DNA from: a phage
Direction: 5' to 3' (one strand)
DNA: 64,000 nucleotides
Assembly: GCA_011911785.1 (NCBI GenBank)
Contig: GCA_011911785.1_4084.1
The position numbers and the translations under genes are program-made. Under the pieces are notes generated by a model that saw only the letters and a program-made list of their open reading frames with translations, was not told the origin of the DNA and searched no databases. Each line of letters opens with the position of its first letter. Position 1 is the stretch's first letter. Of this stretch, positions 17,660 to 19,190 are shown one piece after another.

Positions 17660-18499
17660 ATGAAATTAAATTTTATTATCAACTTTAATGTTAAAGAAAC
17701 CGATCATTACGCATCAGAAGATGACCGTGTTGCACCAGCTTCGTCTGAATACATCAGAAATGAAAATGTCCATATGCATGAAAATTATTTCGACTTTGGT
17801 AATTTTATTATCTACCGTGGATTTAAGGATGTTGTATTCCGTTCCAGATATGAAGACTTTGAACATGCACTCGTTGATGTACCGGATGAATTAGTATTCC
17901 AGTTCATGTTACTTGGTATTAAAGATTATGACTTTATAGTTTATAACCATTATACTAAGCGTATTATGATTGGTAATGATTCATATGATCTTACTTATTA
18001 TTCCAGTACTGATGAAGATTTAGAAAATATTAAACGCCGTTCTGGTGGTATACGTAATTGTTCATCTTCAAACTCCAGTAGAATGAGTGAAAGGTTTTTT
18101 GATTTCAAAAATAGCAATAATAACGACTGTGAAGACGCGGACAATACTGAACATGTAATGTTTGAAATTGACCACAATAATGGATATAATGACTTCCTTA
18201 ATGTTCTGAAGCCTTATATCAATCATAAATTCATCAAAGATGTAAATCTGGTAGCTCGTGACTTACAGTACAGTGATCGTACTGGTGGTATGCCTGTACC
18301 AATGGATCGTGTATGTACGAACAATACAGTGTTTAATGTACCACGAGAAGATGTTGCATTTGTATTTCTGGCATTTTTGAATTCAGATGCACTATGGGAC
18401 GATAATGAAAGACAATTTAGTTCAAGACATATTGAAATAATTCGTCAAAACACACTACTTCTGTGGAAGAAATTTACTGAAAATACCCAGGACAAATAA
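17660..18499 (+). CDS. hypothetical protein, family A (longer member)
   Basis: 279 aa; motif DELVFQFMLL. Confidence 0.6.
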   Translation: MKLNFIINFNVKETDHYASEDDRVAPASSEYIRNENVHMHENYFDFGNFIIYRGFKDVVFRSRYEDFEHALVDVPDELVFQFMLLGIKDYDFIVYNHYTKRIMIGNDSYDLTYYSSTDEDLENIKRRSGGIRNCSSSNSSRMSERFFDFKNSNNNDCEDADNTEHVMFEIDHNNGYNDFLNVLKPYINHKFIKDVNLVARDLQYSDRTGGMPVPMDRVCTNNTVFNVPREDVAFVFLAFLNSDALWDDNERQFSSRHIEIIRQNTLLLWKKFTENTQDK

Positions 18500-18516
18500 A
18501 TTCTTGGTGATATAAT
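18489..18516 (+). promoter_or_regulatory. candidate promoter with extended -10
   Basis: AGGACA, 16-nt spacer, TGATATAAT (TATAAT at 18511-18516); predicted start site falls inside the 5' arm of the adjacent terminator. Confidence 0.4.
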
Positions 18517-18518
18517 GA

Positions 18519-18552
18519 TGAGTGGCAATATATCTTTGTCACTCTTTTTTTT
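18519..18552 (+). terminator. rho-independent terminator
   Basis: Stem GAGTGGCAA/TTGTCACTC (one mismatch), loop TATATCT, then T8. Confidence 0.65.
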
Positions 18553-19190
18553 AATCCTGAAAGGTTCCATATGGAAATGATTAAGAGCCTAATCCACTCG
18601 AAAATGTAGAGGGTAGATGAGTAGTCCTTTCAGTACGAACAGCAGATGAAACCCGTCAGATGTGGGCATATTATGAACCCCTCACGGCAATGCGGCTGTA
18701 TAAAGAACTCCGATAAGCACACAGAGAGTTCCTAGATAGACATATAAGGATCGCACCTTACCAGATTTGCTAAGGGAGATTTCATTAGAAATTGCGGTCA
18801 ACTATTTGTACAAGATAGTTGCGTCCAAAATTTGGTGAAATCAAATACCAGTACTGTTCATATGGTACTCGTATTATGTGTCGGGATGTTTAAGACCGAC
18901 GACCGTTGCTACAAGAACCGCGATAGAGAGAAACAGAGCAACCCGCTTTCGCCTCGTTAAGAGAATTCGTGATATGAAATATGTGAAGACCACCAGCGTC
19001 AAATTTTAATTCTTTCCCCCAGTGGGGGGATGAAATATGCTCTTCCAAACCTCGTCAATATTAATTAAAACCATTTAGTACTATTAGAATTATTCAGAGC
19101 GTAGCGATGAATTAATTCTACTGATGTTGATTGAGTGCTAACGAAATCAACATCGAGTACATTATTTGATGTTTCCTAAAAAGGAATAAT
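18553..19190 (+). ncRNA. candidate structured non-coding RNA locus (unclassified)
   Basis: About 640 bp with no ORF of 60 aa or more on either strand in an otherwise densely coding genome; locally GC-richer; hairpins such as TCCCCC-AGTG-GGGGGA; no tRNA T-loop motif found. Confidence 0.3.

What the first reader, a model, noticed from the sequence alone, without database searches (positions are those of the whole stretch)
18489..19190. ORF-free, GC-richer 640-bp locus downstream of an overlapping promoter/terminator: candidate structured RNA
A TGATATAAT extended -10 promoter (18508-18516) sits so that its predicted start site falls inside the 5' arm of the strong terminator 18519-18552. Upstream transcripts would terminate, while transcripts initiated here could not form the hairpin and would read into a 640-bp segment with no ORF of 60 aa or more on either strand. 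That segment is visibly GC-richer than its surroundings (for example GACCGACGACCGTTGCTACAAGAACCGCG) and contains several stable hairpins (GTTGCT...AGCAAC; TCCCCCAGTGGGGGGA). In a genome this tightly packed that is unusual. No tRNA-like T-loop was found.
Basis: partly seen in the sequence, partly recalled or inferred. Interest (0 to 1): 0.6.

Follow-up and report, generated by a model that had tools for sequence, protein, structure and literature searches.

The report
New large structured jumbo-phage RNA
The gene-free gap encodes a ~480-nucleotide, intricately folded non-coding RNA from a previously undescribed family that E. coli-type jumbo phages carry in 4-5 copies and that small mobile islands in bacterial chromosomes carry in single copy; its function is unknown.

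Summary
Window 18500-19191 has no ORF over 52 aa, is GC-richer (0.41 vs ~0.33), and starts with an AGGACA-16-TGATATAAT promoter whose -10 ends 3 nt before a 9-bp hairpin plus T8. The interpretation (structured RNA) is strongly supported. The core, 18585-19060, is copy 1 of 4 in this A4-like Asteriusvirus genome. It belongs to a family of at least 70 non-redundant members (425-587 nt) in Rak2-like jumbo phages. On 70 sequences, a 15-helix, two-pseudoknot structure gives 95.7% paired cells (shuffles 77%, slid partners 37-44%), and 57 of 80 pairs show compensatory changes. About 90 positions are invariant. It is not coding, matches no Rfam 15 family, and I found no description in the literature. 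Nearly every member has its own extended -10 promoter, and one A4 copy lies between two minus-strand genes, so it is an independent RNA gene and not a leader. Intact single copies also occur in small chromosomal integrative islands (E. coli LR-29-1 and four metagenomic contigs) that have an integrase and defence-type cargo but no recognisable replication genes. Function is unknown. My best guess is a trans-acting folded RNA or RNP particle (like ROOL/GOLLD). The main rival is an RNA-primed replication-origin module pirated by satellites.

The parts
18489..18516 (+). Promoter: -35-like AGGACA (18489-18494), 16-nt spacer, extended -10 TGATATAAT (18508-18516)
   Evidence: Found by the scan. TG-N-TATAAT is invariant in 12 copy-1 orthologues. 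The same GGACA-N16/17-TGATATAAT class recurs before other genes in the window. 58 of 67 family members have TGnTAnAAT 21-96 nt upstream of the core, against 0 in both controls.
18520..18552 (+). Terminator-like hairpin GAGTGGCAA/TTGTCACTC (18520-18544) plus T8 (18545-18552). It would terminate read-through from the upstream gene and overlaps the predicted start site of the RNA.
   Evidence: Hairpin arms covary and a T-run follows in the orthologues. The hairpin is absent from paralogous copies 2-4, so it is specific to this locus and not part of the RNA family core.
18567..18574 (+). Small leader hairpin CCATATGG just upstream of the core; its sequence varies between members
   Evidence: Alignments A1 and A3, first columns. 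Not tested formally.
18585..19060 (+). Conserved core of the structured ncRNA (copy 1 of 4 in this genome)
   Evidence: nhmmer full-length match. About 90 invariant positions in 70 sequences. 80 base pairs in 15 helices, 95.7% paired, 57 pairs with compensatory change. G.U pairs fit the + strand only.
18589..18616 (+). P1 hairpin with the conserved loop CGAAAAUGUAG
   Evidence: Helix 1: 7 of 8 pairs show double changes.
18639..18699 (+). P3 (ACAGC/GCUGU) enclosing GAAACCCGU...CACGGCAAUGCGGC and a variable hairpin
   Evidence: Helices 4 and 5 (100% and 99.6% paired).
18705..18731 (+). P4 variable hairpin (GAACUC/GAGUUC)
   Evidence: Helix 6: 6 of 6 pairs covary.
18735..18778 (+). Invariant joining region GAUAGACAUAUAAGG, small hairpin UAAG/CUUA (18745-48/18757-60) and invariant CUAAGGGAG
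   Evidence: Invariant columns; helix 7.
18809..18832 (+). 24-nt peripheral module UACAAGAUAGUUGCGUCCAAAAUU (site A)
   Evidence: the module is at site A only in 36 members, at site B only in 11, at both in 11. Chance expectation is 0.03 per sequence.
18844..18875 (+). P6 long hairpin whose loop UUCAUAU (18857-18863) is the 5' arm of pseudoknot PK1
   Evidence: Helix 8. PK1 found.
18972..18978 (+). 3' arm of PK1 (AUAUGAA)
   Evidence: Helix 9: 6 of 6 pairs covary, 99.3% paired. 6.97 of 7 pairs formed in 32 copies from 10 genomes.
18879..18901 (+). P7 hairpin (UGUCG/CGACG)
   Evidence: Helix 10.
18905..18971 (+). 3' domain: PK2 GUUGC (18905-09) pairs with GCAAC (18938-42) in the loop of P9 (18926-30/18946-50); also P8 (18919-23/18967-71) and P10 (18953-55/18961-63). 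It contains the invariant stretches GACCGU, AGAAAC and ACCCGCUU.
   Evidence: Helices 11-14 (95-100% paired, 13 of 18 pairs with double changes).
18994..19057 (+). 3' tail: box 1 CAGCGUCAA (CGUCA at 18997-19001), C5/G5 hairpin (19016-20/19025-29) followed by GAUGAAA, and box 2 CUCGUCA (CGUCA at 19053-57). A possible closing helix UGA (18618-20) with UCA (19055-57) is invariant and therefore untestable.
   Evidence: Invariant columns; helices 2 and 15. In RaK2 both boxes read CUUCA. In at least 24 of 70 other members a hairpin plus U-run is inserted between box 1 and the C5/G5 hairpin.
19061..19191 (+). 3' flank up to the next gene. The first ~40 nt are AT-rich, followed by two locus-specific hairpins. 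It is unknown whether this flank is part of the RNA.
   Evidence: No shared terminator within 250 nt in most members. AT content is 76-77% in the first 40 nt after box 2, against a ~67% background, averaged over 60 members.

Best explanation
The locus is an independent gene for a large, highly structured non-coding RNA, copy 1 of four paralogous 'promoter + RNA' modules in this A4-like Asteriusvirus genome. Host sigma-70 RNA polymerase starts at the AGGACA-16-TGATATAAT promoter. The hairpin + T8 placed 3 nt after the -10 stops read-through from the upstream gene, and it is weakened for transcripts that begin inside its 5' arm. The ~480-nt transcript (+ strand) folds into a compact architecture of about 15 helices tied together by two pseudoknots, with about 90 invariant, mostly unpaired nucleotides and a peripheral 24-nt module that can occupy either of two positions. 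I propose that it acts in trans through this fold, as an RNA-only or RNA-protein particle made early in infection. That would be the same general kind of thing as the phage-associated ornate RNAs ROOL and GOLLD, and it would not be a leader of the downstream gene. What is shown: the gene exists, its strand, its structure, its independence from neighbouring genes, its family and its distribution. What is inferred: the start site, action in trans, and particle formation.
For: Structure: on 70 sequences sharing under 97% identity, 95.7% of cells pair (shuffles 77.0 +/- 0.4; slid partners 37-44%). 57 of 80 pairs and 1044 cells carry double changes (shuffles 45 and 292). The covariation score is 0.531 against 0.183 (shuffles) and 0.07-0.10 (slid), and 0 of 500 shuffles reach the observed value on any measure. 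Both pseudoknots covary. Not coding: 13% of indels are multiples of 3, there is no codon-phase bias and no conserved ORF. Independent gene: there are four copies in A4, all in CDS-free gaps. Copy 3 lies between two minus-strand genes. Downstream genes differ between copies. 58 of 67 members have their own extended -10, against 0 in the controls. Constraint: across genera the RNA is the only feature in the neighbourhood that gives a full-length nucleotide match. Features typical of a 3D-folded RNA: about 90 invariant positions and a peripheral module that swaps between two sites. Self-contained module: intact copies with their own promoter occur in chromosomal islands that share no protein genes with the phage, and these were acquired at least three times. 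Precedent: ROOL and GOLLD are large, pseudoknotted, phage- or prophage-encoded RNAs of unknown function that form RNA-only assemblies, and in ROOL a 'tertiary' pairing predicted from covariation turned out to be intermolecular (PMC12286853).
Against: No expression data exist for any member, so the transcript, its ends and its abundance are inferred. There is no homology to ROOL, GOLLD, OLE or any other Rfam family. Unlike those RNAs, it is not next to tRNA genes: the A4 tRNAs lie at 304-307 kb and the nearest copy at 321 kb. Most members lack a shared 3' terminator. Four or five dispersed copies per genome, together with single copies in satellite-like islands that have no replication genes, would fit a cis-acting replication element at least as naturally. 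PK1 codes of sister copies are not systematically orthogonal, so nothing here speaks for or against oligomerisation.
Confidence: 0.5

Rival explanations
1. RNA-primed replication-origin module. The promoter plus structured transcript would act in cis, like ColE1 RNA II or the R-loop origins oriF/oriG of T4. The folded upstream RNA would direct its 3' part (G6 run, then an AT-rich stretch) to form a persistent hybrid that primes leading-strand synthesis by the T4-like replisome. The 4-5 dispersed copies would be the phage's multiple origins. Satellite-like islands would carry one copy so that the helper phage replicates them.
For: There are 4-5 dispersed, positionally conserved copies per genome, each with a host-polymerase promoter. 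Single copies sit in small integrative islands that share no protein genes with the phage and have no recognisable replication or packaging genes, and these were acquired at least three times. An invariant G-run near the 3' end is followed by a 40-nt block of 76-77% AT against a 67% background. Most members have no shared terminator after the core. The phage encodes a T4-type replication and recombination set including RNase H. From my own knowledge, plasmids carrying T4 origins are replicated and packaged by T4 (Kreuzer and Alberts).
Against: The RNA-coding DNA is GC-richer than its surroundings, so it is not an unwinding element. Cumulative GC skew follows gene orientation, and three of the four copies are not at turning points. 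About 90 invariant unpaired nucleotides, two pseudoknots and a position-swapping peripheral module go well beyond what known primer RNAs show. Many members have an intrinsic-terminator-like hairpin upstream of the G-run, which would stop the transcript before the proposed priming site. The AT block is modest.
Confidence: 0.25
2. RNA component of a phage-island conflict. Either the island copy is a decoy or poison version of an RNA the phage needs (a defence), or the phage copies neutralise an island-encoded system that uses the RNA (mimicry of the kind phages show when they capture ToxI-like antitoxin RNAs). This is a special case of trans action with a specified biological role.
For: The islands carry defence-type cargo next to the RNA: a reverse transcriptase, Kiwa KwaB, a UvrD-like helicase, an ADP-ribosylglycohydrolase and DuOB/DUF488/DUF4326. 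Island RNAs are intact, carry their own promoter and are under the same structural constraint. Transfers between phages and islands happened repeatedly.
Against: The RNA is universal and multi-copy in the whole Rak2-like group, and the paralogue types shared between genera are old, which points to a core phage function and not a counter-defence. Islands are rare (2 of 5,426 E. coli genomes). No protein partner is consistently adjacent in the phages.
Confidence: 0.12
3. Cis-regulatory leader or attenuator. The structured RNA would be a giant 5' UTR that senses a ligand or protein and controls read-through into the downstream genes.
For: In copy 1 no terminator separates the RNA from the downstream 180-aa gene. 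Some members contain an internal hairpin + U-run that could serve as an expression platform.
Against: Copy 3 is followed by two genes on the opposite strand. Downstream genes differ between paralogues, and in the islands the RNA converges on the repressor gene. Conserved sequence continues beyond the internal terminator. No riboswitch family matches.
Confidence: 0.05
4. Remnant or site of a mobile element: a group I/II intron, a MITE-like repeat, or the attachment site of the neighbouring recombinase.
For: Multiple copies per genome. Small HNH endonuclease genes lie in the neighbourhood. In three metagenomic islands the RNA lies directly downstream of a large serine recombinase gene.
Against: No intron model matches, even with permissive filters. 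The flanking ORFs are complete and unrelated, so no split host gene exists. Copies occupy the same syntenic positions in different genera. The islands use different integrase types (tyrosine in E. coli, large serine elsewhere), and the RNA is internal to the island, not at its junction.
Confidence: 0.03

Closest known systems
ROOL and GOLLD RNAs (large ornate RNAs of phages and prophages)
   Same: Hundreds of nucleotides long, many helices with several pseudoknots, extensive sequence conservation, encoded by phages, function unknown. In ROOL a pairing predicted from covariation proved to be an intermolecular kissing loop in a homo-oligomeric cage (PMC12286853), and PK1 here could be of either kind.
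   Different: No sequence or covariance-model similarity. Not next to tRNA genes. Present as 4-5 diverged paralogues per genome, each with its own promoter. Hosts are Enterobacterales jumbo myoviruses. Also carried by non-phage chromosomal islands. Oligomerisation is untested.
ColE1 RNA II and the T4 oriF/oriG origin transcripts
   Same: A promoter plus a roughly 500-nt transcript whose folding could matter, a G-run near the 3' end, several copies per T4-like genome, and an element that would let foreign DNA be replicated by the phage.
   Different: Far more invariant unpaired nucleotides and pseudoknots than known primer RNAs. The template is GC-richer than its flanks. Many members contain internal terminator-like hairpins. 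GC skew gives no support. No antisense regulator is evident. Origin activity is untested.
phi29-type packaging RNA (pRNA)
   Same: A phage-encoded structured RNA in which a covarying loop-loop pairing, first drawn as a pseudoknot, is intermolecular and builds a ring. This comparison rests on my own knowledge and on reference 35 of PMC12286853.
   Different: pRNA is about 170 nt, single copy, and belongs to small podoviruses with protein-primed genomes. T4-like packaging motors are not known to need RNA. There is no sequence similarity.
The four 'lncRNAs' of Pseudomonas jumbo phage PA5oct
   Same: A jumbo phage reported as related to the Rak2-like group has four ORF-free, + strand transcribed regions of 236-619 nt defined by RNA-seq, two of them at 2-5% of phage reads (PMC7318152).
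   Different: No detectable homology: nhmmer with maximum sensitivity and a search for the family's invariant motifs found nothing in the PA5oct ncRNA loci. They therefore give no expression evidence for this family.
Jumbo-phage satellites / tmRNA-adjacent integrative islands (I55-type)
   Same: Small islands with an integrase and defence cargo, inserted next to a small-RNA gene and lacking transfer genes, can be specifically packaged by a jumbo phage (PMC12595487). The E. coli ffs-ybaA island and the metagenomic islands that carry this RNA have that general make-up.
   Different: That system is from Pseudomonas with a different jumbo-phage lineage, and no shared RNA element was reported there. 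Mobilisation of the islands described here is untested.

Membership tests
Any Rfam 15 family (including ROOL, GOLLD, OLE, raiA, HEARO, group I/II introns, RNase P, tmRNA, 6S, riboswitches, small ribozymes) | Match to the family covariance model at or near its gathering score | tested here: not met
   0 matches at gathering score in the whole window. With permissive filters on 18400-19300 the best hit has E = 0.35 at 24.8 bits against a 50-bit threshold and lies on the terminator hairpin. Six divergent members gave one noise hit at E = 4.5.
ROOL/GOLLD-type ornate phage RNAs (as a kind) | Large (over 400 nt), multi-pseudoknotted, highly conserved, phage-encoded | tested here: met
   425-587 nt, 15 helices plus 2 pseudoknots, about 90 invariant positions, present in 70 phage records.
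ROOL/GOLLD-type ornate phage RNAs (as a kind) | Frequent location next to tRNA islands | tested here: not met
   A4 tRNA genes lie at 304.0-307.1 kb. The RNA copies lie at 65, 126, 206 and 321 kb. There is no tRNA in the window.
ROOL/GOLLD-type ornate phage RNAs (as a kind) | Homo-oligomeric RNA-only assembly | not testable with these tools
   Needs cryo-EM, SEC-MALS or native gels. PK1 is compatible with either intra- or intermolecular pairing.
Group I / group II intron | Interrupts a host gene (exons rejoin into one ORF) and has the conserved catalytic core | tested here: not met
   The flanking ORFs are complete, with their own stop (18499) and start (19192). Flanks differ between paralogues. 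No intron model matches.
Hammerhead ribozyme | Invariant core CUGAUGA ... GAAA around stem II | tested here: not met
   The local resemblance GAUGAG-stem-CGAA (18616-18640) fails. The positions equivalent to C3/U4 vary, A6 is U in several members, and the A13/A14 equivalents vary (GAAC, GCAG, GUUC, GGAG) in alignments A1 and A3.
Riboswitch / cis-acting leader | Always lies upstream of, and on the same strand as, the gene it regulates | tested here: not met
   A4 copy 3 is followed by two minus-strand genes. In the islands the RNA converges on the repressor gene.
RNA-primed origin (ColE1 RNA II / T4 oriF-oriG type) | Promoter-driven transcript ending in a region prone to form a DNA-RNA hybrid or to unwind | tested here: inconclusive
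   A promoter is present in essentially all members. An invariant G-run is followed by a modest AT-rich 40-nt block. Against this, internal terminator-like hairpins occur in at least 24 of 70 members, and GC skew gives no support.
RNA-primed origin (ColE1 RNA II / T4 oriF-oriG type) | Confers origin activity in cis | not testable with these tools
   Needs plasmid amplification or transduction assays, or replication-initiation mapping.
Protein-coding gene or pseudogene | Conserved reading frame, indels in multiples of three, third-position variability | tested here: not met
   13.3% of 17,967 pairwise indels are multiples of 3. Variability by phase is 0.241/0.218/0.251. The short ATG-initiated frame after the G-run is read in different frames in different members.
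PA5oct lncRNA001-004 | Sequence homology | tested here: not met
   nhmmer --max gave only hits with E > 10, and none of the invariant motifs occurs in the PA5oct ncRNA loci.

The most novel reading that the evidence does not exclude
The RNA is the element through which small satellite-like islands exploit T4-like jumbo phages, or defend against them. One version: it is a structured-RNA replication-origin module, the first of its kind in a phage, that satellites have pirated repeatedly. Another version: it is a self-assembling RNA particle essential to the phage, whose island-borne versions hijack or poison it. Either would be a new functional class of large RNA, in a genetically tractable E. 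coli phage system.
Probability: 0.3. Interest if true: 0.92.

Novelty: new variant of a known kind. Interest (0 to 1): 0.82.

Why it matters
Very few classes of bacterial or phage RNA are both large (over 400 nt) and highly structured, and each has opened new biology: RNase P, the self-splicing introns, OLE, the HEARO/omega RNAs, and the ROOL/GOLLD nanocages. This candidate new class has several unusual properties. It occurs as 4-5 diverged paralogues per genome. It is present across the Rak2-like jumbo phages (at least four genera), including many cultured E. coli, Salmonella, Klebsiella, Erwinia and Yersinia phages considered for therapy. Small integrative islands in bacterial chromosomes carry intact copies. 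That last point links a structured RNA to the barely explored interplay between jumbo phages and satellite or defence islands. The hosts and phages are easy to grow, so the function can be tested directly. On the practical side, public records either leave these loci blank or annotate spurious small ORFs over them, and a covariance model would correct dozens of genome annotations.

Tried and rejected
1. Known RNA families. Rfam at gathering score and with permissive filters, on the window and on six divergent members, plus ARAGORN, gave nothing.
2. Hidden protein gene or small peptide. Rejected on indel lengths, phase and frame inconsistency. The ATG after the G-run is read in different frames in different members.
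3. Hammerhead-like core GAUGAG-stem-CGAA. The essential positions vary.
4. Homology to the RNA-seq-defined lncRNAs of phage PA5oct. None found.
5. Paralogues inside the 64-kb window. None. The other three copies lie elsewhere in the genome.
6. Bacterial genome scan with a 15-base pattern. The pattern was too unspecific: 120 chance hits, none a true member by nhmmer.
7. Orthogonality of PK1 'codes' among sister copies, as a sign of specific homo-oligomers. Not supported: 22% of cross pairs are fully complementary, and the three CBB copies share one code.
8. GC-skew evidence for origins. Skew tracks gene orientation only.
9. A consistent protein neighbour. None found. Adjacency to a sigma-70-family gene holds only for copy-4 orthologues in Asteriusvirus and in RaK2.
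10. A possible pairing of the 24-nt module (CGUCC) with GGAUG after the G-run. It appeared in the column scan, but it rests mostly on wobble variation and fails in some members, so it is not included.
11. A six-pair register for the closing helix GAUGAG/CUCGUC. Position 19052 varies while its partner is invariant, so this register is not supported.
12. Literature. Seven searches and two reviews or primary papers on jumbo phages gave no description of this RNA.
13. The two 279-aa genes near the locus as tandem paralogues. No similarity.
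Full report
1. THE OBSERVATION

The window is 99.3-99.6% identical to Escherichia phage A4 (ON286972, Asteriusvirus, 355.5 kb). Window position 18500 corresponds to A4 position 65083.

Between the stop codon of a 279-aa ORF (18499) and the ATG of a 180-aa ORF (19192), no ORF on either strand exceeds 52 aa. GC content is 0.40-0.41 across 18500-18999, against 0.30-0.36 on either side. The consensus scan finds AGGACA (18489), a 16-nt spacer and TATAAT (ending at 18516) preceded by TG. 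It also finds a 9-bp hairpin at 18520-18544 followed by T8. Every factual element of the finding is therefore present at the stated coordinates.

None of these elements is statistically remarkable by itself. TGNTATAAT occurs 13 times in the window against 9.25 expected. The minimum free energy of the + strand is only 1.8 sd below shuffles, and the - strand is at -0.5 sd. The case rests on comparative evidence.

2. WHAT IS THERE: A CONSERVED, MULTI-COPY ELEMENT

blastn against 50,697 phage records finds the intergenic segment in 62-70 records. All are jumbo myoviruses of the Rak2-like group: Asteriusvirus, Eneladusvirus, Mimasvirus and unclassified relatives that infect Escherichia, Salmonella, Erwinia, Yersinia, Serratia, Cronobacter, Pectobacterium, Xanthomonas and Klebsiella. 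Most records have 3-5 separate places each.

The gene order is conserved across genera: a ~270-aa hypothetical gene, a ~700-bp gap, a ~175-aa hypothetical gene, a DNA methyltransferase and a cytidylyltransferase. In that neighbourhood the gap is the only feature that gives a full-length nucleotide alignment between genera (about 70% identity over ~480 nt). The flanking protein genes give short fragments or nothing. Even against 121Q (same genus) the upstream gene gives no nucleotide match, while the gap is 85% identical.

I fetched the whole A4 genome and searched it with a profile of the element. This gave four full-length copies, all on the + strand and all in gaps free of real genes:
- c1: window 18581-19059.
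- c2: A4 125,755-126,305.
- c3: A4 205,620-206,116.
- c4: A4 320,995-321,446.
The window itself holds only c1.

Pattern scans of IMG/VR and of JGI metagenomes, filtered with nhmmer, raised the collection to 141 instances. Of these, 85 are unique full-length sequences and 70 share under 97% identity, with lengths of 425-587 nt. Klebsiella phage RaK2 (Alcyoneusvirus) has a single, much more divergent but full-length copy (E = 7e-45) with its own TTGAAC-17-TGATATAAT promoter, and a spurious 'ORF245' is annotated over it.

3. IT IS A STRUCTURED RNA READ FROM THE + STRAND

RNAalifold on 49 sequences predicted 68 pairs, 43 of them with compensatory double changes.

An exhaustive scan of all column pairs added two pseudoknots:
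- PK1: the loop of the long hairpin P6 (UUCAUAU, 18857-63) pairs with AUAUGAA (18972-78).
- PK2: GUUGC (18905-09) pairs with GCAAC (18938-42), which lies in the loop of hairpin P9.

I then counted a curated structure of 80 pairs in 15 helices on the 70-sequence alignment:
- 95.7% of cells form standard pairs, against 77.0 +/- 0.4% in shuffles and 37-44% when partners are slid by 1-3 columns.
- 57 pairs and 1044 cells carry changes on both sides (shuffles: 45 and 292).
- The covariation score is 0.531, against 0.183 (shuffles) and 0.07-0.10 (slid).
- No shuffle out of 500 reaches the observed value on any of the five measures.
- In PK1 all six tested pairs covary and 99.3% of cells pair.

In 32 copies from ten genomes, 6.97 of 7 PK1 pairs are formed. 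The codes differ between copies: UUCAUAU, AUCGAAU, AUUGUAU and AUUGCAU in the four A4 copies. Many positions alternate between G.U and G-C or A-U, which works only on the + strand, the strand of the promoter.

The segment is not coding. Only 13.3% of 17,967 pairwise indels are multiples of three. Variability is flat across the three codon phases. The only recurrent ATG, after the G-run, is read in different frames in different members.

About 90 positions are invariant in all 70 sequences. They are mostly in joining regions and loops: GAAACCCGU, CACGGCAAUGCGGC, GAUAGACAUAUA, CUAAGGGA, GACCGU, AGAAAC, ACCCGCUU, two CGUCA boxes, and GGGGGAUGAAA.

A 24-nt module (consensus UACAAUAUAGAUCCGUCCAAAAUU) sits between P5 and P6 in 36 members, inside the P10 hairpin in 11, and at both sites in 11. 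The chance expectation is 0.03 per sequence, and most of the remaining 12 members have a variant form. Peripheral elements that swap position in this way are typical of RNAs with a defined three-dimensional fold.

4. IT IS AN INDEPENDENT GENE, NOT A LEADER

All four A4 copies have a GGACA/GAGACA-16-TGnTAnAAT promoter 32-69 nt upstream of the core. Family-wide, 58 of 67 members have TGnTAnAAT 21-96 nt upstream on the sense strand. Both controls, the reverse strand of the same stretch and 150 nt inside the RNA, gave none. The other nine members have one-off variants such as TGCTATACT. The same promoter class precedes several protein genes in the window, so the RNA is probably made together with those genes by the host polymerase.

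Copy 3 lies between endonuclease VII and a baseplate gene, both on the minus strand, so it cannot be the leader of a downstream gene. Neighbouring genes differ between copies and give no functional hint. Only copy 4 has a conserved neighbour, a sigma-70-family gene 89-99 nt upstream. This holds in Asteriusvirus and in RaK2, whose single detected copy occupies that position.

The 3' end is undefined. Only 18 of 65 members have any terminator-like hairpin within 250 nt downstream. At least 24 of 70 carry a hairpin + U-run inside the element, between box 1 and the C5/G5 hairpin.

5. THE PROMOTER/TERMINATOR OVERLAP

This feature is specific to copy 1 and absent from copies 2-4. It is conserved among copy-1 orthologues in several genera: the -10 ends 2-6 nt before a hairpin whose arms covary, and a T-run follows. 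In the window, a transcript that starts 6, 7 or 8 nt after the -10 would retain a hairpin of -7.7, -4.3 or -3.9 kcal/mol instead of -12.2. In EJP2, Hallingskeid and XbC2 a stable stem (-11 to -14 kcal/mol at +7) would remain.

The arrangement most simply insulates the RNA gene from read-through out of the upstream operon. That transcripts initiated locally escape termination is plausible for this phage but not shown. No other TGNTATAAT site in the window is followed by such a hairpin.

6. AN UNEXPECTED SECOND HABITAT: CHROMOSOMAL ISLANDS

A search of 5,426 complete E. coli genomes found the element in two chromosomes, and none was found in 72,556 plasmids.

In strain LR-29-1 it lies in a ~10.8-kb island inserted between ffs (SRP RNA) and ybaA. 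The island carries a tyrosine integrase split by IS3, a small serine recombinase, DuOB, DUF488, DUF4326 and DUF2188 proteins, and hypothetical genes. The island copy is full-length (558 nt, E = 7e-120). It has its own TGATATAAT promoter, an intact PK1 (AUUGUAU/AUACAAU), the module at both sites, and the internal hairpin + U-run. No island protein has a homologue in the A4 genome. Two of them are about 70% identical to proteins on metagenomic contigs that also carry the RNA.

Those contigs (L317, L306, L280, L263) are bacterial. The RNA sits in a small element bounded by ordinary chromosomal genes: mod-type ABC transporter genes, an epimerase, a T2SS ATPase and an rRNA methyltransferase-like gene. 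Three of the four elements have a large serine recombinase directly upstream of the RNA. In L263 it lies 2.6 kb away. L317 and L280 have a CI-like S24/HTH repressor. The cargo is of defence type: a reverse transcriptase, Kiwa KwaB, a UvrD-like helicase and an ADP-ribosylglycohydrolase. Neither Pfam nor PHROGs recognises any replication or packaging gene among the island proteins I scanned.

In a distance tree the island copies fall in at least three places, each nested among phage paralogue clades. The E. coli island copy is closest to a Serratia phage BF copy (distance 0.16), so the module has moved between phages and islands repeatedly. Islands with an integrase and defence cargo, inserted next to a small-RNA gene, have been shown to be satellites of a jumbo phage in Pseudomonas (PMC12595487). 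That is a precedent, not evidence for the islands found here.

7. HOW IT MOST LIKELY WORKS

Shown: a promoter-equipped, + strand, highly constrained, doubly pseudoknotted RNA gene that is portable as a self-contained module.

Inferred: everything about function.

I favour a trans-acting folded RNA or RNP particle (about 0.5). The density of invariant unpaired nucleotides, the pseudoknots and the position-swapping module are hallmarks of RNAs that work through a precise 3D fold. The closest kind known, ROOL/GOLLD, is also phage-borne.

The main rival (about 0.25) is a cis-acting, RNA-primed origin module. In its favour:
- 4-5 dispersed copies in a phage with a T4-type replisome.
- Single copies in islands that have no replication genes.
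- An invariant G-run followed by a 40-nt block of 76-77% AT against 67% background.
- From my own knowledge, T4 origins let plasmids be replicated and packaged by T4.
Against it:
- The GC-rich template.
- The internal terminators.
- GC skew that merely follows gene orientation.
- A structural complexity unknown in primer RNAs.

A conflict role, as a decoy or an antidote between islands and phages, is a third possibility (about 0.12). A leader or attenuator role and a mobile-element or att-site role are unlikely, for the reasons given in the rival explanations.

8. COMPARISON WITH WHAT IS KNOWN, AND NOVELTY

No Rfam 15 model matches the window or divergent members, even with permissive filters. 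The family resembles ROOL/GOLLD in kind but fails their covariance models and lacks their association with tRNA genes. A local resemblance to the hammerhead core fails at essential positions. The RNA-seq-defined lncRNAs of phage PA5oct are not homologous.

Seven full-text searches, a 2026 review of jumbo-phage biology and genome papers on these phages mention nothing like it. Public records leave the loci blank or place short spurious CDS over them.

I therefore regard it as a previously undescribed class of large structured RNA, with two caveats: subscription-only literature could not be searched, and no expression data exist. I rate it a new variant of a known kind (large ornate phage RNAs). 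There is a real chance (about 0.3) that its function, tied to the interplay between jumbo phages and satellite or defence islands, is categorically new.

Noticed in passing
L332 (E. coli LR-29-1, NZ_AP027515) 4847-15643; RNA at 8990-9547: A ~10.8-kb island lies between ffs and ybaA. It has an IS3-split tyrosine integrase, an intact copy of the RNA, DuOB/DUF488/DUF4326 genes and a small serine recombinase. A second E. coli genome (EEC_W5, NZ_CM130020) has the same RNA match, but I did not examine its context.
   Followed up: partly
L332 9998-10030: Two tandem copies of TTATCGATCGTT, 13 nt apart, with an inverted partial copy (AACGATCGGTAA) just upstream. They lie in the ~700-nt non-coding stretch between the island RNA and the next gene. 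They could be an operator or an iteron.
   Followed up: no
L317 1343-2269; L263 13083-14030; L280 292-3995: The metagenomic islands that carry the RNA also carry a reverse transcriptase (RVT_1), a Kiwa KwaB homologue, and a UvrD-like helicase with an ADP-ribosylglycohydrolase. These are typical variable defence cargo.
   Followed up: partly
Public records: fHe-Yen9-04 g047/g048 (L003 1532-2013), Hallingskeid CDS0625-0629 (L005 1350-2084), A4_511 (L017 16002-16151), RaK2 ORF245 (L331 1335-1541): Short 'hypothetical protein' CDS, on either strand, are annotated over the RNA gene in several genomes. These are almost certainly annotation artefacts.
   Followed up: yes
window 15062, 16816, 24569, 28438, 40913 (+ strand): The promoter arrangement GGACA-like -35, 16-17 nt spacer, TGATATAAT recurs in front of several genes. 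It appears to be a regular promoter class of this phage, probably used early by the host polymerase.
   Followed up: partly
window 18705-18731; L017 and L018 equivalents: The P4 hairpin (GAACUCCGAUAAGCAYACAGAGAGUUC) is nearly identical in A4 copies 1-3, although the copies differ elsewhere, and in the distance tree the four Asteriusvirus copies cluster by genus. This suggests gene conversion between paralogues. A4 copy 3 also has a ~20-nt internal duplication (AGTTCCTCGATAG) next to P4.
   Followed up: partly
L331 (RaK2) about 1490-1523: In the divergent RaK2 copy both otherwise invariant CGUCA boxes read CUUCA. A concerted change like this suggests that the two boxes contact the same partner.
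   Followed up: no
L021 13938-14897 (A4_181) and L331 69-965 (RaK2 ORF244): A sigma-70-family sigma-factor gene lies 89-99 nt upstream of copy 4 in Asteriusvirus, and upstream of the only copy detected in RaK2. This may be the ancestral location of the RNA gene, or a functional link to transcription.
   Followed up: partly
L016 (A4) 4140-6138, outside the window: A 2-kb stretch has no annotated gene (GC 0.38). It contains no tRNA, no tandem repeat and no member of this RNA family. Its content is unknown.
   Followed up: partly
L252-L254 (Pseudomonas phage PA5oct): PA5oct has four annotated 'putative lncRNA' loci defined by RNA-seq, two of them very abundant. They are unrelated in sequence to the family described here and, as far as I could find, are still uncharacterised.
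   Followed up: partly
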